Shown: piece after piece, positions 12,150 through 20,035 of the stretch | Position numbering within the stretch: position 1 is the first letter of the stretch | Layout of the letters: each line of letters starts with the position of its first letter | From: Parcubacteria group bacterium | Lineage (GTDB): Bacteria; Patescibacteriota; Minisyncoccia; Phycocordibacterales; WO2-35-19 | Assembly: GCA_012514175.1 (NCBI GenBank) | Contig: JAAZAU010000008.1 | Coordinates: 977 to 64,976 of the forward strand | Length of the DNA: 64,000 nucleotides | Reading direction: 5' to 3' | Made by a program: the position numbers and the translations under genes | Notes under the pieces: generated by a model | The model's input: only the letters and a program-made list of their open reading frames with translations | Told to the model about the DNA's origin: nothing | Databases searched by the model: none

Positions 12150-12189
12150 AGCAATAAATAAAAAAGCGGCACCTCGTTTGGCACCGCTT
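12150..12189 (-). terminator. Rho-independent terminator of paralog 1
   Basis: On the minus-strand RNA: AAGCGGUGCC-AAACGA-GGUGCCGCUU (10-bp stem with two G-U pairs) followed by UUUUUUAUUUAUU. Confidence 0.6.
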
Positions 12190-12209
12190 AATGTGGCAAA
12201 AATGCACCA

Positions 12210-12674
12210 CTATTCTATTATAGGATAAGCAGAAAGAGTTTTCTGCATTTCCTCAAGAATCCTAATAACCTCAGAGGAACCGTTGGTTGCTTCTGTAGTT
12301 GCCTTCAGTTTAGCCACACTGTCCAACGTCTGTTGGTATGTATGACCAAACTTTTTGGCGTTACGCTCTTCATACTCCAAACACTTTTTCAGTTTGTCTA
12401 GAGTGGCAATGAGATTATCTGACGCACAATCAGACAACGTCAAGCCAAGACCTTCAAGTGTAGACACCATCTCCCGCACAGTTATACCGCCGGGGAAAAA
12501 TCCTTCCAAAGCTTCAATCATTGAATCTTTTGGTTTTGAGGCTTTGGAAGCTGAAAACCACTTATCCTCTATTTTTATGAGAACATTATATGCGTGAGGA
12601 TAAGAATATTCGCTTCGGCGACTCAAAAACAACTCTCCGTCACCAACAAAATGAGACGGTGGTTCTGTTTTCAT
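12210..12674 (-). CDS. Hypothetical protein, paralog 1 of a duplicated pair
   Basis: Start set at MKTEPP, preceded by SD aagggagga. Shares the core ...KWF(S/A)AS...MIEAL...GLTLSDCASD.L..TLDKLKKCLEYEERNAKK with 13255-13710. No known domain recognised. Confidence 0.6.
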   Translation of the reverse strand: MKTEPPSHFVGDGELFLSRRSEYSYPHAYNVLIKIEDKWFSASKASKPKDSMIEALEGFFPGGITVREMVSTLEGLGLTLSDCASDNLIATLDKLKKCLEYEERNAKKFGHTYQQTLDSVAKLKATTEATNGSSEVIRILEEMQKTLSAYPIIE

Positions 12675-12751
12675 AACATCCTCCCTTACCATCAGTGTGG
12701 TTATATTGCAGTTTATAAAAGAACTGACAACCTGCATTACTATACATTCAT

Positions 12752-12783
12752 TAAATTTTTTGTCGAGCATTTTTTGTGGTATT
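12752..12783 (-). promoter_or_regulatory. Conserved about-30-nt leader motif (ctcgacaaaaaatttaatgaatgtatagt) upstream of paralog 1
   Basis: Near-identical copies lie upstream of paralog 2 (13771-13798). A partial copy lies at 18734-18752 at the edge of repeat B. The motif is non-coding once SD-supported starts are used. Confidence 0.45.
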
Positions 12784-12869
12784 GCAAACATCATCTAATA
12801 AAACAAAAGAAATTAACCCGTTTGACTCGCAAGTTCAAATATGCTGTCATATTAAGCAGGAGGTGTAGG

Positions 12870-13118
12870 ATGAAATACTTGTTTTTTGGTTTGCTAATTT
12901 CCGCGGTTTTTTTGTTTTTTGGAGCGTTGGCCTTGCTGGTATTCGCTTTCAAATTGATGCAAACTATGCCACCAGAGTTGTTAATTTTGCTTGTGGCATA
13001 CATTATGATGAGAATATCAATTTTGCTCGTGTTCACTAGCATGGTTGTCGGGCTACTAATACCAATTAGGCAAGCCATCATTCAATGGGGAACCAAAAAT
13101 GCCATTGAGGAAAAATAA
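12870..13118 (+). CDS. Small two-TM membrane protein
   Basis: SD aggagg at 12858-12863, ATG 12870. 82 aa with two hydrophobic helices. Followed by a terminator. Confidence 0.5.
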   Translation: MKYLFFGLLISAVFLFFGALALLVFAFKLMQTMPPELLILLVAYIMMRISILLVFTSMVVGLLIPIRQAIIQWGTKNAIEEK

Positions 13119-13133
13119 TCCCGCTTTCTAACG

Positions 13134-13158
13134 AGACCCGTAGGAGGCGGGTCTTTTG
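13134..13158 (+). terminator. Rho-independent terminator
   Basis: agacccg-tagga-ggcgggtct followed by tttg/t-rich sequence. Confidence 0.6.
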
Positions 13159-13169
13159 TTTACATTTAC

Positions 13170-13213
13170 TAAAAACAAAAAAACAAAAAAAGCGGCACCT
13201 TGTTTGGTGCCGC
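13170..13213 (-). terminator. Rho-independent terminator of paralog 2
   Basis: Perfect 9-bp stem agcggcacc/ggtgccgct. On the minus strand it is followed by a long T-run. Confidence 0.7.
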
Positions 13214-13254
13214 TCGGTGCGACTGGTTGAAAACTTAAACTCCTTCCCCACCAT

Positions 13255-13710
13255 CTACAAATTACGAGACTTTACTGGATAAACCGAAAGAGTTTTTTGC
13301 ATCTCGTCTAGCAACTCAATGATTTCCGTAGGACCGCCTATGGCCGCTTCTTTCAATTTAACGAGATGAAACAGGATTAGTCGGTGCACATAACCGACTT
13401 TTTTAGCGTTACGTTCTTCATACTCCAGACACTTTTTTAATTTGTCCAAAGTGTCTGAAAGATCATCTGACGCGCAATCAGACAACGTTAAGCCCAGAGC
13501 GCAAAGCCCGCGTTCCAAAGAACAAATAGAACGACCGTAAGCTTCAACCAAGGCTTCAATCATTGAAACTTTTGGTTCGGAGCAATAGCTAGCCGCGAAC
13601 CACTTGTCCCCCATTTTGATAATAAAGGGAACATGAAATGAATAAAAAGGCCAAGACGTAGTCCTGCTACCTAAAAACAGTTGGCCGTCACCAGCATATC
13701 GTGTTTTCAT
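13255..13710 (-). CDS. Hypothetical protein, paralog 2 of a duplicated pair
   Basis: Start set at MKTRYAGDG, preceded by SD aaggagg. About 50% amino-acid identity to paralog 1, with a near-identical nucleotide stretch across the LTLSDCASD...EYEERNAKK core. Confidence 0.6.
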   Translation of the reverse strand: MKTRYAGDGQLFLGSRTTSWPFYSFHVPFIIKMGDKWFAASYCSEPKVSMIEALVEAYGRSICSLERGLCALGLTLSDCASDDLSDTLDKLKKCLEYEERNAKKVGYVHRLILFHLVKLKEAAIGGPTEIIELLDEMQKTLSVYPVKSRNL

Positions 13711-13779
13711 ATTGCCTCCTTGTGCCACTGGCACCGCATTGGAATTGTGTAAAAGAACTAATACCTTGCACTATACATT

Positions 13780-14020
13780 CATTAAATTTTTTGTCGAGTT
13801 TGAATATTATAAAATAAAAAGCCCCGCCTGTAATAGCGCGGGGCTTAGAGAAAGCGGAGTTAGGTTCTTATTCTCCAACTAAACCCTTCTTCCTTGAGGG
13901 TGAGTTGGAATTACCCTTTTAGGGAGCCTACTTAGGCCCCACTCTGGCTTTCTCGGACTGGCTTTACATCTCCCAACCATCGTGGTTGGGAGAGTTGGGC
14001 GAGAATATCACTTCCACCAA
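13780..14020 (-). repeat. Repeat copy A (about 241 bp; contains terminator-like hairpin, TATAAT, and three further conserved hairpins)
   Basis: About 95% identical to 18734-18970. Hairpins: gccccgcc...ggcggggc, tccaact...agttgga, ctcccaacc-atcgt-ggttgggag. Confidence 0.8.
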
Positions 14021-14331
14021 TTTACTATGAAAATTAAATTTCAGGATAAACTCAAACGATTTAACAAATTTCAGAAAACTGTACTGGGGTTGAATGAACC
14101 TAAAGTCATCCATGAAGGTACTGACCTAAAAGTCTGCGCCAAGTATATTTTGAAGGAAGGTTCGAACAAAGAAAAAAGGGAAATTATGGAGTATCTCAAG
14201 TTGAAAATAAAAATTTCCAAAGAATTTGTAAAAATTACAAACAGTTAACAATAATGAATAAATACTTATTATTGTGTCTAGACAGAGCATGCGCTCTACT
14301 GTTGTTTGAAACTCAATCAAGGAGGCCCAAA

Positions 14332-14523
14332 ATGGCTAAACCGAGAAATCCAAAAAAGGATATAACCAGCATCCGGCTCTGCGGTGTTCGAGGCTGCTGT
14401 CCTGTTGTGGAGGTCCATCACGGATACAACAAAATCGTCATTACTGATGATGACGGTGGTAAAGTTACGCTTACCAAGGAGCAGTGGCGGGAAGCGCTTA
14501 CTAAAGTCAATATTGATGACTAG
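14332..14523 (+). CDS. Small Cys-rich peptide (63 aa), candidate precursor/substrate of the adjacent radical SAM enzyme
   Basis: SD caaggagg 14318-14325, ATG 14332. Sequence MAKPRNPKKDITSIRLCGVRGCCPVVEVHHGYNK...; stop 14521-14523. Sits 80 nt upstream of the rSAM gene. Confidence 0.5.
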   Translation: MAKPRNPKKDITSIRLCGVRGCCPVVEVHHGYNKIVITDDDGGKVTLTKEQWREALTKVNIDD

Positions 14524-14603
14524 AGTCATCACAGAATCAACACTCCAACCCCTGCGCCGTAACAGACGCAGGGGTTTCCTTTCATTTGTTAAAGGAGAAA
14601 ACC

Positions 14604-16133
14604 ATGACAGATCTACATAACGCTTTGTATTGGTTCCTGTCGCGAACAAACCAGATCACTTGGAGAGCAAAACAATTTTACGCTTCTTGTTTTCTGCAAG
14701 TTTTCCGCAGAAATGGATTGGTGGCGCTTGTTCACCAACTTCACCCGGAACCAGTATATGTTTCGGAACGCACCTGGGCTGATATTCCCAAGAAAGTTAT
14801 CACGGGAACACCATCTGGAAAAATGGACGATCTTGTCCAAGAGCTTATCTCTCGCAAGGTATTCATCAGCAATCCCAACACCGATCTGCAAGAATTAAAT
14901 AATGCGCGTAAACGCACTTTGCAGATGATTAATCGTCCGACCATCCTATATCTTATGATGGCTCAAGGTTGCAACTTTGCTTGCAACTATTGTCCCATTC
15001 CAGATCTCGCCAAACAATATGGTGAGCACCTGTTATCTTTTGAAGATGCTATCGCTGGTATTAAACTCTGGCGGAAGCACATAGAAGAACAGCCACAAGA
15101 TAATAGTCCATACTTTCTAATCTTTTACGGGGGTGAGCCCTTGTTAAATCGGGAAGTGTTGGAAAAGTTACTGCCCCACATAGCCAAGGAAAAAAATGCT
15201 GGACATCTTCCTGCAAAGCTCGAACTTATGCTTTGTACCAATGGGTCTTTGGTGGACGCTGAACTTTCAAAGTTGCTAGCCCGTTACAAGGTTGTGGTAG
15301 CAATAGGTATAGATGGTCCGCAGAAACACAACGATCTCGTTCGTACAACCACCAGTGGCAGTTCTACTTTTACAAGGATCGAGCATTCGGTGAGACAACT
15401 TGTGAGCGATGGTGTTCGTGTCGTGGCCTCAGTGACTATCACTCCAGCAAATGTCAATGAAATTGATCAGTATCCACGCTTTTTGCAAAAACTAGGTTTC
15501 TCTCAATTTGGTTTTAACCTGATGAAGGGAAAAGTTTTGGTACAGCAGCTTGCCGGACAAAGCATGGAAAACTATTGTCGTGCTGCGGTTCGAGGTGTTT
15601 TGCAAGGGCTCGAAGACATTACTGCAGAGGGACAATGTTACGAGTATCAACTGGAAAAAAAATTGGTCGCTGTACGCAACGGTCTACCGTTTTCAGTTGA
15701 TTGCACTTGTTACGGTAATCAGTTGGTTATTCAAGCAGATGGACAGGTAAGCAACTGTCCATTTCTCCGATTCGACCAAGGACAAGTTAGGGAACTTCCT
15801 GATTCATTCAGGATTAGACAGACCAAAGCAGTAGAGACGTGGAGGCGCCGCCTGCCAATTCTCAATGCTTCAGTTAAAGTTGATGGCCACAAAGATATAT
15901 TCAGCGGTGGTGGATGTGCCCGAAGTTCTTTTGACCTCTATGGTGATATTGAAGCCGAAGACACCGCAAATACTATCTTCACAAAGGAGATAACACATGA
16001 ACTCATCTGGACACTCCTGCCTGGAGAACAAGCCAATGCTATTCGCCAAGAAAAAACCACTCATTGGAGTTATCGGCGGGTCAGGAATCTGTCAGTTACC
16101 GGAACTTGTGATTTCCGAAAACGTCGAAACTAA
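14604..16133 (+). CDS. Radical SAM enzyme with C-terminal SPASM/twitch auxiliary-cluster domain (peptide-modifying or anSME-like maturase)
   Basis: SD aaaggag, ATG 14604 (track start 14586 is TTG). Radical SAM motif CNFACNYCP (CxxxCxxC). C-terminal Cys pattern CTCYG...NCPF...GGGC. About 110-aa N-terminal extension before the core. Confidence 0.85.
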   Translation: MTDLHNALYWFLSRTNQITWRAKQFYASCFLQVFRRNGLVALVHQLHPEPVYVSERTWADIPKKVITGTPSGKMDDLVQELISRKVFISNPNTDLQELNNARKRTLQMINRPTILYLMMAQGCNFACNYCPIPDLAKQYGEHLLSFEDAIAGIKLWRKHIEEQPQDNSPYFLIFYGGEPLLNREVLEKLLPHIAKEKNAGHLPAKLELMLCTNGSLVDAELSKLLARYKVVVAIGIDGPQKHNDLVRTTTSGSSTFTRIEHSVRQLVSDGVRVVASVTITPANVNEIDQYPRFLQKLGFSQFGFNLMKGKVLVQQLAGQSMENYCRAAVRGVLQGLEDITAEGQCYEYQLEKKLVAVRNGLPFSVDCTCYGNQLVIQADGQVSNCPFLRFDQGQVRELPDSFRIRQTKAVETWRRRLPILNASVKVDGHKDIFSGGGCARSSFDLYGDIEAEDTANTIFTKEITHELIWTLLPGEQANAIRQEKTTHWSYRRVRNLSVTGTCDFRKRRN

Positions 16134-16875
16134 AACTCCTTACGGCAAACCATCCGGAATCATCAGAGTGGGAGAACTGTGCGGCGAAAGAGTTGCTTTC
16201 TTGCCAAGACATGGCGAGGATCATACCATTCCACCTCACAAAGTACCATACAAAGCAAACCTCTCTGCTCTGAAATCAATCGGTGTGCGACACGTAATCG
16301 CCACCTGTGTTGTCGGAAGCTTGCGGAAAGAAATTAGACCTGGTGCGTTTGTTGTCCCGGATCAGTTCATAAACTTTACGTGGGGCCGAGATGACACCTA
16401 CAGAGTTGATCGTCAACTCGTTCACTTACAGATGGCAGAATCATACTGCGAGCATGTACGAAACATTATCTCTCGCGAAATTAAAGCGATGAACGTTAAC
16501 TACCGGATCAAAGGTACAGTAGTTGTTATACAAGGTCCGAGATTTTCTACCGTCGCTGAAAGCAAGATGTTTGCACTTTGGGGAGGAGACATAGTAAATA
16601 TGACTCAATACCCAGAGTGCTTCTTCGCTCGCGAGCTCGGCATATGTTATGGGGTTGTCGCCACAGTAACCGATTACGATGTTGGTGTGCCAAGCTTGAT
16701 TTCAATGCGGACTGAATCCGTGGATGCAGTTCTGAAGGTATTCCACCGCAACACAAAGGCAACCCTATCACTGATTCAAAGGCTCGCTAGTGCCTCCAAA
16801 GAAATAACTGACTGCGTATGCGCAACCAATCGAATTGCCGAGTATTACAAATTGGCAAACATTGATAGTTCTTAA
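16036..16875 (+). CDS. mtnP: 5'-methylthioadenosine/purine nucleoside phosphorylase (MTAP/PNP family)
   Basis: Strong colinearity with MTAP: IGVIGGSG, FLPRHG..HTIPPHKV, VGSLR, VPDQFI, GPRFST.AES, GGDIVNMT.YPE. The ATG at 16036 overlaps the rSAM gene 3' end by about 98 nt. Confidence 0.85.
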   Translation: MLFAKKKPLIGVIGGSGICQLPELVISENVETKTPYGKPSGIIRVGELCGERVAFLPRHGEDHTIPPHKVPYKANLSALKSIGVRHVIATCVVGSLRKEIRPGAFVVPDQFINFTWGRDDTYRVDRQLVHLQMAESYCEHVRNIISREIKAMNVNYRIKGTVVVIQGPRFSTVAESKMFALWGGDIVNMTQYPECFFARELGICYGVVATVTDYDVGVPSLISMRTESVDAVLKVFHRNTKATLSLIQRLASASKEITDCVCATNRIAEYYKLANIDSS

Positions 16876-16912
16876 TGACCCTCGTGTTTTTGACACGAGG
16901 GTCATCTTTTTT
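16876..16912 (+). terminator. Rho-independent terminator after MTAP gene
   Basis: gaccctcgtg-tttttga-cacgagggtc followed by tcttttttc. Confidence 0.75.
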
Positions 16913-16916
16913 CAAA

Positions 16917-16945
16917 TTGACATTATATAAAAATTCTGTTAAATA
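16917..16945 (+). promoter_or_regulatory. Putative sigma70-type promoter of the ABC-F gene
   Basis: TTGACA at 16917-16922, 17-nt spacer, TAAATA at 16940-16945. A roughly 90-nt leader follows, containing a 5-codon uORF (ATG 17001-TAA 17018). Confidence 0.45.
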
Positions 16946-17036
16946 CAATAAGAGTCCTGGTGTTTCTAACATCAAGAAACGGTACTTTGACGTTTCCTGG
17001 ATGAAGAATCTAGGATAAAATAGGAGAAATATAGAT

Positions 17037-18677
17037 ATGGAGATAAAAGCGGATAAAATTCACAAAGCCTACGGCACCATTACCATACTCGATGATGTGT
17101 CCTTCTCTTTAGAGAAAGGTCAGAAAGTTGGTTTGGTGGGGTACAATGGCACTGGCAAAACTACGCTCCTTAAAATCATTGCTGGTGTTATTGAACCGGA
17201 TGGCGGAAAAATCAGTATCCGCAGAGGAGCGAAACTTGGTTACATGCCACAAGATACAAGCTTGGTCTCAGACGAGACCGTGAGCGACTATTTATGGTGC
17301 GTTTCCGGCATGAAAGAGTTGGAACAACGCATAGATGAGTCATTGGAAGCGTTGACTGATTACGAAAACAGAAACGGTTACGCATTCGATTATCGCATGG
17401 AGATGACCCTTGCAGGTTTCGGTTTGCAAAACATATCTAACAGAAATATCAATTCCCTTTCGTCTGGGCAAAAAAGCAAAGTGTTCATGGCTGGAGTCTT
17501 ACTTTCCGATCCGGATATTTTGGTGCTTGACGAGCCGACTAATAATCTCGATCTTCCAGCTCTGATCTGGCTTGAGAATTTCTTGATGCGTTGCGAGACC
17601 ACCTGTCTTATGGTTTCGCATGACCGCCTCTTCCTTGATCGGATAGTCAGAAAGATTTTTGAGATAGACTGGAACACCAGAAAACTCATAATTACGAACG
17701 GCAGATACTCAGATTATTTGGAGAGAAAGGAGAAAGAAACATCAAGACAACTCGCTGAACATAAAGCTCAGCAGGAAGAAATAAAAAGATTGACCGATCA
17801 AGCCAGGAAGAAAAAAGCTGAAGCGGTTCAAGGTTCTCGATATGTCGGCACGGACAATGACAAGTTTCTGCGCGGATTCAAACGTGACAGAGCTGCTAAG
17901 TCCGGGAAAACGGCGAAAGCAATCGAGAAACGCATTGAACAGATGGATGTGCTTGAAAAACCTGTTGAACGTGATGCTTTTCGTATCCACCTACAACCAA
18001 CCAAACCCGAAGGGTCGCGAGATATCAACTTGAAGGATGTGGTCGCCGGATATTCTGCTGATGGATTCCGTGTTGGTCCAATTTCTGCCCACATGTCATA
18101 CGGATCACGTACTCTAATTCTCGGTCTCAATGGATCGGGTAAATCCACTTTGCTTAAAACTCTAAGTGGAGAGCTTGACCTTATCAGTGGCGAAGTTACA
18201 GTTGGAAATGCCCTGGTTGTAGGAAATCTAACTCAAGAACACAACAACTTACCCCGAGAAGAAAGCATAAAAAACTTTCTAATAAGACGAGCTGGGGTTG
18301 AAGTTCAGATTGCTTACGCACTTGCTGTTAAATTTGGTTTCAAGGCCGAAGAAATAGACAAAGAAATTTCGTCTTTGTCTCCCGGTGGTAGGGCCAGACT
18401 GTTGTTTGCTTTATTTTCTGCCCTGTCGGTAAACGTCCTGTTGTTAGATGAGCCGACGAACCACCTGGATCTTGAAGCGCTCCAAGCGCTTGAAGAAGCT
18501 GTTTCGCAATACGAGGGCACTATCATTCTCGTATCGCATGATCGCCATTTCCTTGAAAAGTTCAAAGCTACCGATACCTATGTTCTTTTGGACGGAAAGC
18601 TTGAGCGTCAGCAAAGCTTCAGTCTGTACATGAAGAATGCTGAACATGAAGCAAAACGTCTAATCAGTATGTTATAG
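17037..18677 (+). CDS. ABC-F family ATPase (two tandem ABC domains, no TMD; EttA/ARE-type translation factor)
   Basis: NBD1: GYNGTGKTTLLK, LSSGQKSKV, ILVLDEPTNNLD. Charged helical linker. NBD2: GLNGSGKSTLLK, LSPGGRARL, VLLLDEPTNHLD. 546 aa. Confidence 0.9.
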   Translation: MEIKADKIHKAYGTITILDDVSFSLEKGQKVGLVGYNGTGKTTLLKIIAGVIEPDGGKISIRRGAKLGYMPQDTSLVSDETVSDYLWCVSGMKELEQRIDESLEALTDYENRNGYAFDYRMEMTLAGFGLQNISNRNINSLSSGQKSKVFMAGVLLSDPDILVLDEPTNNLDLPALIWLENFLMRCETTCLMVSHDRLFLDRIVRKIFEIDWNTRKLIITNGRYSDYLERKEKETSRQLAEHKAQQEEIKRLTDQARKKKAEAVQGSRYVGTDNDKFLRGFKRDRAAKSGKTAKAIEKRIEQMDVLEKPVERDAFRIHLQPTKPEGSRDINLKDVVAGYSADGFRVGPISAHMSYGSRTLILGLNGSGKSTLLKTLSGELDLISGEVTVGNALVVGNLTQEHNNLPREESIKNFLIRRAGVEVQIAYALAVKFGFKAEEIDKEISSLSPGGRARLLFALFSALSVNVLLLDEPTNHLDLEALQALEEAVSQYEGTIILVSHDRHFLEKFKATDTYVLLDGKLERQQSFSLYMKNAEHEAKRLISML

Positions 18678-18680
18678 CAA

Positions 18681-18716
18681 AGGAGGTTGGGTTTTCACTC
18701 GACCTCCTTTTTTTGT
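18681..18716 (+). terminator. Rho-independent terminator after ABC-F gene
   Basis: aggaggt-tgggttttcactcg-acctcct followed by ttttttt. Confidence 0.7.
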
Positions 18717-18733
18717 TTGGTTAAAGATCAAAG

Positions 18734-18970
18734 CATTAAATTTTTTGTCGAGTTTGAATATTGTAAAATAAAAAGCCCCGCCTGTAATAGCGCGGGGCTT
18801 AGAGAAAGCGGAGTTAGGTTCTTATTCTCCAACTAAACCCTTGTCTTGGGGAGTTGGAATTACCCTTTTAGGGAGCCTACTTGGGCCCCACTCTGGCTTT
18901 CTCGGTTGTCTGGCTACATCTCCCAACCACCGTGGTTGGGAGAGTTGGGCGAGAATATCACTTCCACCAA
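18734..18970 (-). repeat. Repeat copy B (about 237 bp), near-identical to copy A
   Basis: Same hairpins as copy A. Differences are confined to loops and short indels (for example atcgt to accgt in the ctcccaacc...ggttgggag hairpin loop). Confidence 0.8.
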
Positions 18971-19147
18971 TTCCCGCACCAACCCTTCTGCGAACGCCAT
19001 GGCTTCCTCGGTTGTGATGCCGAGGGCCTTGGCCCAGTTGCCGACCTGGCGCCGAAAGTCATTCGGCCTCAGTCGGACACCTTCTTCCTGAAGCTTAAGC
19101 TTCAGGAACATGAGAGCAATCTGCCCTCTCCTCTCTTCTGTCATCAT
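18914..19147 (-). CDS. Small hypothetical protein (77 aa) whose last about 19 codons are encoded by repeat B
   Basis: Strong SD (aaaggaggagga) immediately 5' of ATG 19147. Sequence MMTEERRGQIALMFLKLKLQEEGVRLRPNDFRRQVGNWAKALGITTEEAMAFAEGLVRELVEVIFSPNSPNHGGWEM. The same frame and stop are preserved in repeat A. Confidence 0.5.
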   Translation of the reverse strand: MMTEERRGQIALMFLKLKLQEEGVRLRPNDFRRQVGNWAKALGITTEEAMAFAEGLVRELVEVIFSPNSPNHGGWEM

Positions 19148-19179
19148 TCCTCCTCCTTTCTTTTTTATTTTTTTACAAC

Positions 19180-19216
19180 CTACTATATAGTAGAACAAAT
19201 ATACAGATTTAGTCAA
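19180..19216 (-). promoter_or_regulatory. Putative promoter with a 14-bp perfect palindrome overlapping the -10
   Basis: On the minus strand: TTGACT (19211-19216), 18-nt spacer, TACTAT. The palindrome CTACTATATAGTAG (19180-19193) overlaps the -10, as an operator would. Confidence 0.45.
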
Positions 19217-19387
19217 GTAAAATCTGTTTATATCTTTTTAAAATAGTTTTGCCTATTAGGTTCAAGCAAAAACCCCCGAACTCATATATTATTAACCTAT
19301 TAGTTTTATTTTTATAATATTGCTATAATTTAAATTACTTTAAGTATCCAGTTTACAAAAACAATCTGCGATTATAATTAAGATAGT

Positions 19388-20035
19388 ATGGAAAAATTAA
19401 AACCACACCAAGAAGAATTTCCCCACAAGAAACCATTGGTTGCTTCAGAGTATTCTTATCACATAAAAAATAAAGAAAAAGAGATTTTAGCAAATTTTAC
19501 ACCTGAACAACAAGCTGAAATTGAACATAAACGACAGATCCTTTCATCGTTAGCTTACTTCATTGGTAAAGATTTTCACATACCGGTTGAACTCAATAAG
19601 CCTGGAGCTGGTTGGCATTGGGATTTTGAAAAAAACGTAATCCGAATTGATCCGAAAGATCTTCTAGAAAAATCTATGGATTACTTAAGGTTTGTGATTT
19701 CTCACGAAGGAGGCCATCGCAGAATTAGCCGGGTTGACTTTGTTCCTCTTGAAGAATGGAGACAACCTGGATTTTCTTTTATGATGAATGCTATTGAAGA
19801 TCCTCGAGATAACAATTTTGTGGCAGAAGCGTATCCAACATTTCAAGAACAGATGAATCTTGCTTATAAACAAGATTTAGATTTTGAAGCAAAAACTAAA
19901 GAAAAAGCCGACCAAAAACTTGGATATCAACCACGCTTTATACAAGCGGGTTTTGAATATATAAAGCAGCGGAGGGTAAGAGATTCGAACTCTTGGTGGG
20001 TTTCCCCACACACGCTTTCCAAGCGTGCGCACTAG
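19388..20035 (+). CDS. HExxH-motif protein (putative zinc metallopeptidase-like); 3' end overlaps tRNA-Ser antisense
   Basis: Contains ISHEGGHRRI (HExxH). The last about 22 codons are antisense to tRNA-Ser, so the true C-terminus is uncertain. Confidence 0.5.
   Translation: MEKLKPHQEEFPHKKPLVASEYSYHIKNKEKEILANFTPEQQAEIEHKRQILSSLAYFIGKDFHIPVELNKPGAGWHWDFEKNVIRIDPKDLLEKSMDYLRFVISHEGGHRRISRVDFVPLEEWRQPGFSFMMNAIEDPRDNNFVAEAYPTFQEQMNLAYKQDLDFEAKTKEKADQKLGYQPRFIQAGFEYIKQRRVRDSNSWWVSPHTLSKRAH

What the first reader, a model, noticed from the sequence alone, without database searches (positions are those of the whole stretch)
13780..18970. Two about-95%-identical 240-bp repeats with conserved hairpins bracketing the rSAM/MTAP/ABC-F block
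Copy A (13780-14020) and copy B (18734-18970) share four stem-loops: gccccgcc/ggcggggc, tccaact/agttgga, ctcccaacc/ggttgggag, plus flanking sequence. Their differences fall in loops. One is atcgt to accgt. Another is a 7-nt deletion inside the tccaact...agttgga loop, and the indels lie between stems. That pattern indicates selection on RNA or DNA secondary structure rather than on coding. On the minus strand each copy ends with hairpin plus U-run (terminator-like), followed by a TATAAT/TACAAT and then the conserved leader motif. Both copies also preserve a short ORF end (VIFSPNSPNH(D/G)GWEM-stop).

This could be a structured sRNA or 3'UTR module, a MITE-like element, or recombination substrates that could loop out the 4.7-kb cassette between them. 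I cannot assign it to a known RNA family by eye.
Basis: seen in the sequence. Interest (0 to 1): 0.65.

Follow-up and report, generated by a model that had tools for sequence, protein, structure and literature searches.

The report
Duplicated small-gene tail with novel RNA
The two 240-bp repeats are two copies of the end of a tiny conserved gene plus a strongly structured RNA that follows that gene in more than a hundred Parcubacteria (CPR) species and matches no RNA family in Rfam 15; one copy is the native one and the other is a truncated duplicate left when a 4.7-kb gene cassette was inserted.

Summary
Copy A is 13780-14022 and copy B is 18734-18972, 93.9% identical with sharp borders. They are the only two copies in the window and occur in five independent assemblies.

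Read on the minus strand, each copy holds:
- the last 19 codons of a 77-aa gene (ORF77, intact only at copy B);
- a ~105-nt multi-helix RNA;
- an intrinsic terminator;
- the -35 box and spacer of the next gene's promoter.

ORF77 belongs to an uncharacterised three-helix protein family of ~65-70 aa (1,175 clusters at 50% identity). In 104 of the 110 non-chance RNA-pattern hits among Patescibacteria species genomes, a gene of this family ends just upstream of the same RNA. In 14 of 18 loci retrieved by protein alone, the RNA follows the gene. Neighbouring genes are not conserved.

The RNA covaries strongly: 89% of cells pair against 38-62% in slid controls, and 18 of 23 pairs show compensatory changes. 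It matches no Rfam 15 family.

So this is a new Parcubacteria-wide "small gene + 3' RNA + terminator" module. Copy A is a lineage-specific partial duplicate flanking a higher-GC RiPP-like cassette (rSAM maturase, MTAP, ABC-F). It is not a MITE, and not a riboswitch for a downstream gene. The RNA's function is unknown. My best guess is that it is the cis partner of the ORF77 protein.

The parts
18734..18972 (-). Repeat copy B: the native copy, contiguous with the intact ORF77.
   Evidence: ORF77 reads through the repeat's 5' border.
13780..14022 (-). Repeat copy A: a partial duplicate that carries only the last 19 codons of ORF77.
   Evidence: The DNA on the 5' side of the border (minus strand) is unrelated to copy B's ORF77 sequence, and no minus-strand ORF of 50 aa or more ends here.
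18914..19147 (-). ORF77, a member of an uncharacterised ~65-70-aa three-helix protein family ('ORF69 family'). An SD sequence GGAGG lies upstream.
   Evidence: Homologs at 63-74% identity. 223 clusters by profile search. 1,175 representatives at 50% identity. AlphaFold2 pLDDT 85, three helices. No Pfam, NCBIfam, PHROG or PDB relative.
19187..19216 (-). Predicted sigma-70-type promoter of ORF77 (TTGACT, 18 nt, TACTAT).
   Evidence: Consensus scan only.
18802..18903 (-). RNA motif, copy B. Layout: P1, P1b, P2 hairpin, CUAAA junction, P2a, internal loop (GUAA / AAUAAGAA), P3.
   Evidence: Covariance model hit of 89.2 bits, E 3e-23. Coordinates checked.
13848..13954 (-). RNA motif, copy A. Same architecture as copy B, with a P3 tip 5 nt longer.
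   Evidence: Covariance model hit of 83.6 bits, E 1e-21. Feature map.
18765..18798 (-). Intrinsic terminator of copy B (GCCCCGCGC-loop-GCGGGGC, then UUUUUAUUUU).
   Evidence: A hairpin plus T-run follows the motif in 97 of 108 species.
13811..13844 (-). Intrinsic terminator of copy A, identical in sequence to that of copy B.
18920..18942 (-). Hairpin H1 inside the last codons of ORF77. It lies in a lineage-specific C-terminal extension.
   Evidence: By eye, the closest relatives L048, L026 and L101 have a comparable hairpin in the ORF tail (sequences).
13970..13992 (-). Hairpin H1 of copy A, within the orphan ORF tail 13964-14022.
13770..13797 (-). Predicted promoter of paralog 2 (TCGACA, 16 nt, TATAGT). 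Its -35 box and spacer are the last 18 nt of repeat A.
   Evidence: The same 19-mer CTCGACAAAAAATTTAATG lies upstream of paralog 1 at 12749-12767.
14023..18733 (+). Cassette between the repeats, 43.5% GC against 37% for the window. Contents: an AT-rich stretch with a doubtful 73-aa ORF; a Cys-rich 63-aa ORF (14332-14523); a radical SAM/SPASM peptide maturase (14586-16133); MTAP (15997-16875); an ABC-F gene (17037-18677) with its terminator (18679-18710).
13255..13710 (-). Paralog 2, a 151-aa protein of unknown function, directly downstream of copy A. Paralog 1 (154 aa) lies at 12210-12674. They form a ~1,040-bp tandem unit at 71-83% identity.
   Evidence: No family hits.

Best explanation
Each repeat, read on the minus strand, holds the last 57 nt of a small conserved gene (ORF77, here called the 'ORF69 family'). 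This is followed by a ~105-nt structured RNA that is co-transcribed with the gene, then an intrinsic terminator, then 47 nt that run into the -35 box of the next promoter.

The 'SD - small ORF - RNA - terminator' module appears to be a self-contained, normally single-copy unit. It is found across Parcubacteria/ABY1 (Patescibacteria), and its RNA is a structured class absent from Rfam 15.

Shown:
- The family exists.
- The RNA is tightly linked to the ORF.
- The fold is supported by covariation.
- Copy B is attached to the intact gene.
- Copy A is attached to the paralog promoter.

Inferred (origin of the duplicate): the ancestral order was ORF77 - RNA - paralog promoter - paralog 2. A 4.7-kb higher-GC RiPP-like cassette then entered with duplication of the 243-bp segment, either by Campbell-type single crossover of a circular intermediate or by a long target duplication. 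As a result copy B kept the native 5' flank and copy A kept the native 3' flank.

Inferred, about 0.35-0.4 (function of the RNA): it is the cis-encoded binding partner of the ORF77 protein, acting either as an autoregulatory 3' element or as a stable RNP. The invariant internal loop (GGUAA opposite AAGAACC, loop-E-like) would be the recognition site.

Copy A has no ORF and no obvious promoter. It is most likely a recent, still intact, by-product whose terminator insulates the paralog 2 promoter.
For: Repeat borders.
- The 5' border of the repeat falls inside the conserved C-terminal helix of the protein (ELVE|...).
- The 3' border falls inside the paralog promoter, whose 19-mer recurs upstream of paralog 1.

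Linkage of RNA and ORF.
- All loci of ORF77 homologs have the RNA directly after the stop codon.
- The pattern CCTAAANGGGTAATT-N(25-55)-AAGAACC hits 113 species genomes, almost all Patescibacteria, with one hit per locus.
- 104 of those loci have an ORF69-family gene ending 14-65 nt upstream of the CCUAAA junction, so the stop codon lies a few nt before P1 or inside it. Three hits are chance, and three lie at contig ends.
- Retrieval by protein alone gives the RNA in 14 of 18 loci.
- Flanking genes are not conserved.

The RNA fold.
- On a MAFFT alignment not fitted to any structure, 89.1% of cells pair against 38-62% in slid controls.
- The covariation score is 0.567 against at most 0.195, and 0 of 500 shuffles reach it.
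- One pair (columns 69:127) reads AU 69, CG 29, GC 9, GU 4, UA 3.
- An invariant U.G pair and many G.U pairs fix the strand.
- A terminator follows in 97 of 108 loci.
- No Rfam match was found.

The insertion.
- The closest syntenic relative, L048, has the order tRNA-Ser(GGA) ... ORF-RNA ... tRNA-Val(GAC). About 600 nt separate the RNA from tRNA-Val, with no cassette and no paralogs.
- Cassette GC is 43.5% against 37% for the window.
- Both copies are intact by covariance model, at 89 and 84 bits.
- All A/B differences avoid core positions.
Against: - No expression data exist, so co-transcription and the 3' end are inferred from sequence alone.
- The function of the RNA and of the protein is unknown. 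Protein-RNA binding is a guess, based on obligatory cis linkage, a basic N-terminal half of the protein, and a loop-E-like internal loop recognised from memory.
- Three of 17 informative protein-retrieved loci lack an intact RNA (L142 truncated, L150 absent, L153 deleted). The RNA is therefore not indispensable to the gene everywhere.
- The insertion mechanism is unresolved. The cassette has no integrase, and neither an empty site nor a circle junction has been observed.
- The invariance of 21 motif nucleotides in the 116-sequence alignment is partly forced by the search pattern. The pattern-independent set does confirm UAAANGGGUAAUU and AAGAACC.
Confidence: 0.75

Rival explanations
1. The structured element is a riboswitch-type cis-regulator. 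A ligand-binding aptamer plus terminator would control the gene downstream of it, which here is paralog 2 at copy A.
For: The element has a three-way-junction architecture with invariant junction and internal-loop nucleotides, followed by an intrinsic terminator. Copy A sits upstream of paralog 2.
Against: - Across 110 species the downstream genes are unrelated and often convergent. The only constant neighbour is the ORF upstream.
- By eye, the terminator stem does not overlap P1, so I saw no alternative pairing. This was not tested formally.
- Paralog 2 has its own predicted promoter downstream of the terminator.
- Copy B faces the end of a convergent gene.
- A ligand-sensing RNA that acts on the upstream ORF's mRNA is not excluded.
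Confidence: 0.1
2. The RNA is an independent trans-acting small RNA, or the regulatory 3' domain of a dual-function mRNA as in RNAIII or SR1. Both window copies would be functional genes, giving the organism a double dose.
For: - The structure is conserved, ends in its own terminator, and lies at the 3' end of a small-protein mRNA.
- Both copies are intact by covariance model.
- A/B differences avoid the core.
Against: - Among about 125 examples, no RNA copy occurs without the ORF except window copy A.
- There is no room for a promoter between the stop codon and P1 (0-30 nt).
- Copy A has only weak consensus promoters upstream, inside antisense DNA.
- No target complementarity was tested.
Confidence: 0.2
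3. The repeats are attL/attR-like ends of an integrative or excisable element. Alternatively they are a recombination substrate that the cell actively uses to loop out the 4.7-kb cassette.
For: - Direct repeats of 240 bp flank a compositionally distinct cassette.
- Copy A is a truncated 3' gene segment, as at islands inserted into tRNA or tmRNA genes.
- The closest relative lacks the cassette.
Against: - No integrase, recombinase, transposase or replication gene lies in or beside the cassette.
- No empty-site junction was found in JGI metagenome contigs.
- All five long assemblies have the occupied state.
- There is no similarity to phage or plasmid records or to viral contigs.
- RecA-mediated deletion between 94%-identical 240-bp repeats remains possible, but only as a passive property.
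Confidence: 0.15
4. The repeats are copies of a MITE-like, non-autonomous mobile element.
For: A short, structured, non-coding-looking repeat occurs twice within 5 kb.
Against: - The only inverted repeats are the internal hairpins; there are no terminal inverted repeats.
- There are only two copies in 64 kb.
- Each pattern-hit locus in 110 other species held one copy, always in the same position after the same gene.
- The 5' border lies inside a conserved coding sequence.
Confidence: 0.02

Closest known systems
Dual-function RNAs and 3'UTR-embedded regulatory RNAs (S. aureus RNAIII/hld, B. subtilis SR1/SR1P, 3'UTR-derived sRNAs such as CpxQ). Comparison from my own knowledge.
   Same: One transcript carries a small-protein ORF, a conserved structured RNA domain at its 3' end, and an intrinsic terminator.
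   Different: - No target base-pairing has been shown or suggested.
- The fold is a three-way junction with invariant junction and internal-loop bases, more like a protein- or ligand-binding RNA than a seed-bearing sRNA.
- Both the protein family and the RNA family are new, and both are restricted to Patescibacteria.
Autoregulatory mRNA structures bound by the protein they encode (ribosomal-protein leaders such as S15, L20 and L1). Comparison from my own knowledge.
   Same: There is an obligatory cis linkage between a small basic or helical protein gene and a conserved structured RNA on the same mRNA. A protein-binding-type internal loop is present.
   Different: - Known examples lie in the 5' UTR or between cistrons and occlude the ribosome-binding site. 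This element lies after the stop codon.
- ORF77 matches no ribosomal-protein family.
- Binding has not been tested.
Riboswitch aptamers with three-way junctions (for example purine and TPP).
   Same: Similar size (~105 nt), a multi-helix junction, invariant unpaired nucleotides, strong covariation, and a terminator immediately 3'.
   Different: - The conserved gene association is upstream, not downstream.
- I saw no competing antiterminator pairing.
- There is no match to any Rfam riboswitch model.
Direct repeats at genomic islands inserted into the 3' ends of tRNA or tmRNA genes (attL/attR).
   Same: An inserted, compositionally distinct block is flanked by a direct repeat. The repeat contains the 3' part of a gene plus a structured RNA, and only one copy is joined to the intact gene.
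   Different: - No integrase is present.
- The repeat is much longer (240 bp) than typical att cores.
- The target is a protein gene's 3' end plus its 3' RNA, not a tRNA.
- Excision has not been observed.

Membership tests
Any Rfam 15 family | A covariance-model score at or above the family's gathering threshold. | tested here: not met
   Only tRNAs were found in the window at gathering thresholds. The best sub-threshold hit on the element is sX13 at 27.9 bits against a threshold of 50, driven by the terminator. None of 17 representative loci has a hit on the motif, while RNase P and tRNAs in the same loci were found.
ORF69-RNA module (new family defined here) | A match to the covariance model of the RNA (P1, P1b, P2, CUAAA, P2a, internal loop, P3). 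| tested here: met
   Copy B scores 89.2 bits and copy A 83.6 bits, both full length. These two sequences were in the seed alignment, but 114 others were as well.
ORF69-RNA module (new family defined here) | A complete ORF69-family gene ending a few nt before P1 or inside it, on the same strand. | tested here: met
   Met for copy B: ORF77 at 19147..18914, with 10 nt between the stop codon and P1. Not met for copy A, which has only the last 19 codons. In the family the feature holds in 104 of the 110 non-chance pattern hits.
Intrinsic (Rho-independent) terminator | A G+C-rich hairpin immediately followed by a U-run on the transcribed strand. | tested here: met
   GCCCCGCGC-UAUUACAG-GCGGGGC, then UUUUUAUUUU, in both copies. 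The simple scanner missed it because of the bulged stem. Termination activity itself was not tested.
Riboswitch | A conserved aptamer located 5' of a conserved set of regulated genes. | tested here: not met
   Downstream genes are unrelated across 110 loci. The only conserved neighbour lies upstream.
Riboswitch | Specific binding of a small-molecule ligand that switches an expression platform. | not testable with these tools
   This needs in-line probing, ITC or reporter assays. By eye, the terminator does not overlap P1.
MITE | Terminal inverted repeats, target-site duplications and many dispersed copies. | tested here: not met
   No terminal inverted repeats. Two copies in 64 kb. One copy per pattern-hit locus in other species.
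Integrative element att sites | Direct repeats flanking an element that encodes or adjoins a site-specific recombinase. | tested here: not met
   The repeats are present, but no recombinase was found by Pfam, NCBIfam or PHROGs in 12210-20035.
Integrative element att sites | Existence of the unoccupied site or the excised circle in the population. | tested here: inconclusive
   The empty-site pattern gave 0 hits in JGI metagenome contigs. Few samples there contain this organism, and the circle junction was not searched.

The most novel reading that the evidence does not exclude
The small ORF69-family protein and the RNA encoded directly after its stop codon form a previously unknown, phylum-wide ribonucleoprotein of Parcubacteria/ABY1 bacteria, or a self-regulating protein-RNA pair. 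It would be a lineage-specific core component comparable in status to Ro/Y RNA or CsrA/CsrB, possibly connected with translation or tRNA biology, since the module is often embedded in tRNA gene clusters.
Probability: 0.35. Interest if true: 0.85.

Novelty: new variant of a known kind. Interest (0 to 1): 0.7.

Why it matters
CPR/Patescibacteria make up a large share of bacterial diversity. They have tiny genomes full of unknown genes, and almost no lineage-specific non-coding RNAs have been described for them.

This analysis gives three things:
- a ~105-nt RNA with riboswitch-grade covariation, present in more than 100 species;
- its obligatory partner, a 65-70-aa protein family with more than 1,000 clusters at 50% identity and no annotation;
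- a covariance model and a simple DNA pattern with which to find both.

That makes a concrete, testable system: does the protein bind the RNA, what does the pair do, and why does it sit at the 3' end of the gene? It would also improve annotation of thousands of MAGs.

The duplication itself is a minor point. It illustrates how a conserved RNA segment can end up flanking an acquired biosynthetic cassette, and it supplies a natural experiment: an RNA copy without its gene.

Tried and rejected
- **Rfam.** Run at gathering and at permissive E-values, on the window, on the element alone, and on 17 homologous loci. No family was found.
- **ORF77 annotation.** Pfam, NCBIfam and PHROGs on ORF77 and on 37 family members gave nothing. 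PDB by fold had best E 2.2; PDB by profile had best E 0.022, to designed repeat proteins.
- **Mobile-element origin.** 0 hits of the RNA pattern in IMG/VR. No blastn match of the repeat in phage or plasmid collections.
- **MITE.** Rejected: no terminal inverted repeats, and single copy elsewhere.
- **Housekeeping RNA.** I considered RNase P, SRP, tmRNA and 6S, because the motif occurred once per locus and is widespread. Rejected because Rfam finds RNase P elsewhere in one of the same loci, none of these models matches, and the architecture differs.
- **Conserved neighbour genes.** None were found.
- **Paralogs or cassette genes next to the module in other genomes.** Only incidental rSAM and ABC-F hits.
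- **Empty-site junction in metagenomes.** 0 hits.
- **The search for related loci with the broad protein alignment.** Failed because no conserved stretch was available. It was repeated with the narrow alignment.
- **Literature.** Searches for a described Parcubacteria or CPR RNA motif found nothing relevant. This does not prove absence.
- **Similarity to rRNA.** From memory, the motif resembles the 23S GTPase-associated-centre sequence and the sarcin-ricin or loop-E motif. I noted this as a lead only; it was not tested.

Full report
**1.

The repeat finder, MAFFT and blastn agree on the repeat. Copy A (13780-14022, 243 nt) and copy B (18734-18972, 239 nt) are direct repeats. They are 93.9% identical over 246 columns, and similarity stops abruptly at both ends. 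No other full copy exists in the 64-kb window by blastn or by a covariance model built later.

Both strands fold far better than shuffled sequence.

The block between the copies encodes:
- a radical SAM/SPASM enzyme;
- an MTAP (TIGR01694, 275 bits);
- an ABC-F protein (NF000355 'ribosomal protection-like', 401 bits against a cutoff of 380).

Five independent long contigs from NCBI, ENA and JGI carry both copies with the same sequences. Short Logan contigs (assumed assembly k-mer 31) end exactly 30 nt beyond the last A-specific SNP, at 13809. This is what a de Bruijn assembler does when a second copy is present. The arrangement is therefore not an assembly artefact.

**2. Anatomy on the minus strand**

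Each copy reads, from 5' to 3':
- the last 19 codons and stop codon of a small ORF (...LVEVIFSPNSPNH[D/G]GWEM*);
- within that tail, hairpin H1;
- a 9-10-nt linker;
- a ~105-nt multi-helix domain closed by GAGAAAGC/GCUUUCUC;
- 3 nt;
- a GC-rich hairpin followed by UUUUUAUUUU;
- TATAAT (A) or TACAAT (B);
- the 19-mer CTCGACAAAAAATTTAATG.

The full ORF is intact only at copy B. It is ORF77 (19147..18914), with an SD sequence GGAGG and a predicted promoter at 19216..19187.

At copy A the 5' flank on the minus strand is unrelated AT-rich DNA, antisense to a doubtful 73-aa ORF.

The 19-mer occurs a third time at 12749-12767. There and at copy A it forms the -35 box (TCGACA) and spacer of a predicted promoter (16 nt, then TATAGT). 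That promoter drives two tandem paralogous genes of unknown function: paralog 2 (13710..13255) and paralog 1 (12674..12210).

Copy B therefore keeps the native upstream context, and copy A keeps the native downstream context.

**3. ORF77 is a real, conserved gene, and the repeat border lies inside it**

A sequence search found six clusters of ~69-70-aa proteins at 63-74% identity. The alignment shows that the repeat begins within the conserved C-terminal helix (RELVE|...).

A profile built from divergent members found 223 clusters in the word-indexed database. It found 1,175 representatives at 50% identity in the exhaustive search, 522 of them at E<=1e-10 and some with two tandem domains.

All are 'hypothetical'. 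There is no Pfam, NCBIfam or PHROG match. AlphaFold2 gives a confident three-helix bundle (pLDDT 85). It has no significant fold or sequence relative in the PDB.

**4. The structured region belongs to a conserved RNA that always follows this gene**

Every locus encoding an ORF77 homolog has the same architecture immediately after the stop codon, followed by a terminator. Relative to the window's version, these show clear compensatory changes. For example, P1 is GAACGA/UCGUUC in the homologs and GAGAAAGC/GCUUUCUC in the window.

I scanned the GTDB species genomes with the pattern CCTAAANGGGTAATT-N(25-55)-AAGAACC. About 8 chance hits were expected, by my own estimate from database size. The scan returned 113 loci:
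- Almost all are Patescibacteria. Named Parcubacteria and ABY1 lineages include Moranii-, Yonath-, Nealson-, Komeili-, Kerfeld- and Campbellbacteria. Many are MAGs labelled only 'Saccharibacteria'.
- A few hits are labelled Woesearchaeota or Nanoarchaeota, which may be mis-binned contigs.
- Each locus has exactly one hit.
- IMG/VR gave none.

In 104 of the 113 loci an ORF69-family gene ends 14-65 nt upstream of the CCUAAA junction. The stop codon is therefore a few nt before P1 or inside it. Of the other nine loci:
- three are evident chance hits in non-CPR genomes;
- three lie at contig ends;
- two (L068, L112) carry only an unconfirmed, divergent ORF69-like C-terminus on a longer upstream protein, judged by eye;
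- one (L105) has no upstream ORF of 40 aa or more.

Genes further upstream and downstream are not conserved.

A pattern-independent test used 18 metagenome loci retrieved by protein alone:
- 14 have the full RNA right after the ORF;
- 1 has a truncated RNA (L142);
- 1 has no RNA (L150);
- 1 has a deletion removing the ORF end and the RNA (L153);
- 1 is cut by the contig end (L151).

In these 14, UAAANGGGUAAUU and AAGAACC are still invariant.

A hairpin plus T-run follows the motif in 97 of 108 species.

**5. The fold is supported by covariation**

The test used a MAFFT alignment of 116 distinct sequences that was not fitted to any structure (A6). RNAalifold predicts 23 pairs in five helices, and 18 of them show compensatory changes.

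| Measure | Named structure | Controls |
|---|---|---|
| Cells that pair | 89.1% | 38-62% when 3' partners are slid by 1-3 columns |
| Covariation score | 0.567 | at most 0.195 |
| Double-change cells | 582 | at most 172 |
| Shuffles reaching the observed values | n/a | 0 of 500 |

The single variable base in CCUAAA-N-GGG pairs with the base after AAGAACC. The counts are AU 69, CG 29, GC 9, GU 4, UA 3, with 2 non-pairs.

The consensus layout, from 5' to 3', is:
- P1;
- P1b (GGG/CCC, with A-U variants);
- the P2 hairpin;
- the junction CUAAA;
- P2a (NGG/CCN');
- an internal loop, 5' GUAA and 3' AAYAAGAA;
- P3, which begins with an invariant U.G pair and a U-A pair.

G.U pairs, including the invariant one, fix the transcribed strand as that of the ORF. 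From memory, the internal loop resembles a loop-E or bulged-G motif, a common protein-binding site. This was not tested.

No Rfam 15 family matches, in the window or in 17 representative loci where RNase P and tRNAs were detected normally. Three literature searches found no description. That does not prove that none exists.

**6. What the duplication is**

Among about 125 examples of the module, window copy A is the only RNA copy without a complete ORF. No other locus has two copies within 8 kb.

The closest relative, L048, has the same P3 type and the same C-terminally extended ORF. It shares the synteny tRNA-Ser(GGA) ... ORF-RNA ... tRNA-Val(GAC). It has only ~600 nt between the RNA and tRNA-Val, with no cassette and no paralogs.

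In the window the interval 12250-19150 is 40-55% GC against a background of 30-38%. The cassette itself is 43.5% GC against 37% for the window.

The A/B pair at 94% identity is much younger than the paralog 1/paralog 2 duplication at 71-83%.

Copy B keeps the native 5' flank and copy A keeps the native 3' flank. The simplest history is therefore ORF77 - RNA - promoter - paralog 2, into which the cassette was inserted with duplication of the 243-bp segment. A Campbell-type single crossover of a circular intermediate carrying that segment would produce exactly this. So would a long staggered target duplication. I cannot tell them apart.

There is no recombinase. No empty site was found in JGI contigs. 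There is no phage or plasmid similarity. The repeats could support RecA-dependent deletion of the cassette, but that is a general property of such repeats, not a finding.

**7. Do the two copies show selection on structure?**

All 21 differing columns fall outside the 119 stem, junction and terminator positions of 243. The differences are:
- the H1 loop;
- the stop codon, TAA against TAG;
- the linker;
- the P2 loop;
- the tip of P3, including the 5-nt indel;
- the TATAAT box.

With about six independent events, the chance of this is roughly 0.02. That is suggestive but weak. These are also the positions that vary across the family. The case for structure rests on the family, not on the pair.

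Copy A has no ORF. Upstream of it there are only weak consensus promoters inside antisense DNA. It is probably a young, still intact by-product. Its terminator would shield the paralog 2 promoter from upstream transcription.

**8. How the module probably works (inference)**

The facts are:
- The RNA is tied in cis to one gene and sits after the stop codon. P1 starts a few nt after the stop codon or overlaps it, so a terminating ribosome must melt it.
- It ends in a terminator.
- It is independent of neighbouring genes.
- Its unpaired nucleotides are invariant across lineages in which the protein has diverged to about 30-40% identity.
- By my count of charged residues in a typical homolog, the protein's N-terminal half is basic and its C-terminal helix acidic. 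This was not computed.
- Some family members are tandem two-domain proteins.

The reading I favour (about 0.35-0.4) is that the RNA is the cognate binding site of the protein. It would act either as a feedback element on its own mRNA or as a stable RNP.

Alternatives are:
- a trans-acting or dual-function RNA (about 0.2);
- a ligand-sensing element acting on the upstream mRNA (about 0.1);
- a protective 3' structure only, which seems unlikely given the invariant junctions.

Same-strand tRNA genes lie within 500 nt upstream of the module in 17 of 110 loci. That is about tenfold more than my rough estimate from an assumed genome-wide tRNA density. It hints at high expression or a link with translation.

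**9. Verdict**

- The duplication is an ordinary by-product of a cassette insertion.
- The duplicated element contains a member of a widespread, strongly supported and apparently undescribed structured RNA class of Parcubacteria, coupled to an uncharacterised small-protein family.

That is the valuable part of the finding.

Noticed in passing
window 14332-18710 (+): The cassette looks like a RiPP-type cluster in a Parcubacterium. It holds a Cys-rich 63-aa ORF (MAKPRNPKKDITSIRLCGVRGCCPVV...), a radical SAM/SPASM peptide maturase (best NCBIfam hits are RiPP maturases, all below their cutoffs), MTAP, and an ABC-F protein that passes the 'ribosomal protection-like' NCBIfam cutoff (401 against 380 bits). 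This could mean self-immunity to a ribosome-targeting peptide. GC is 43.5% against 37% for the window.
   Followed up: partly
window 16877-17036 (+): After MTAP there is a strong terminator hairpin (TGACCCTCGTG...CACGAGGGTCA followed by a T-run). It is followed by TTGACA, 17 nt, TAAATA, and then a leader of roughly 90 nt before the ABC-F start codon. ABC-F therefore has its own promoter and leader, and attenuation control typical of ARE ABC-F genes is possible. There is a weak sub-threshold Rfam hit to EF3314_EF3315 (30 bits against 100).
   Followed up: no
window 12150-13800 (-): Tandem ~1,040-bp units each carry a promoter, a 151- or 154-aa gene of unknown function (71-83% DNA identity in blocks) and a terminator. 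A small membrane-protein ORF on the opposite strand (12873-13118) lies between them. No family hits were found in Pfam, NCBIfam or PHROGs.
   Followed up: partly
L024-L136 (110 loci): ORF69-RNA modules are often embedded among tRNA genes. A same-strand tRNA lies within 500 nt upstream in 17 of 110 loci, and overall tRNA density is 0.114 per kb. That is about twice my rough estimate from an assumed genome-wide average. In the window the module lies between tRNA-Ser(GGA) and tRNA-Val(GAC), as it does in L048.
   Followed up: partly
P0121, P0122, P0124 and others: Some ORF69-family proteins are 130-170 aa long with two tandem copies of the domain. This suggests that the single-domain protein may act as a dimer.
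   Followed up: no
L142:1714-1786; L150:1700-1800; L153:570-600: These are natural decay variants of the module. L142 keeps P1, P1b and P2 but has lost the whole P2a/P3 arm. L150 has the ORF but no RNA. L153 has a deletion running from the ORF's C-terminal helix to just past the terminator.
   Followed up: partly
L037, L055, L056, L081, L091 (about 20-130 nt after AAGAACC): One subgroup has no terminator directly after P1. Instead it has a further ~100-nt conserved-looking stretch (...AAAUCGUA...GGAGAG...AAUCUUUCCAG...), which may be an extra 3' domain. In L029, L108 and L062, P1 itself is followed directly by a U-run and may serve as the terminator stem.
   Followed up: no
window 13970-13992 and 18920-18942 (-); L048, L026, L101: The window's ORF and its closest relatives have a 10-20-aa C-terminal extension. 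Its coding sequence forms hairpin H1 just before the stop codon. It is unclear whether the constraint acts on the peptide (an NPD-like motif) or on the RNA.
   Followed up: no
L039:444-478 (-): There is an Rfam DUF805b RNA hit above the gathering score (47.5 against 35.6 bits) in a contig labelled Woesearchaeota that also carries the ORF69-RNA module. The contig may be a mis-binned CPR sequence.
   Followed up: no
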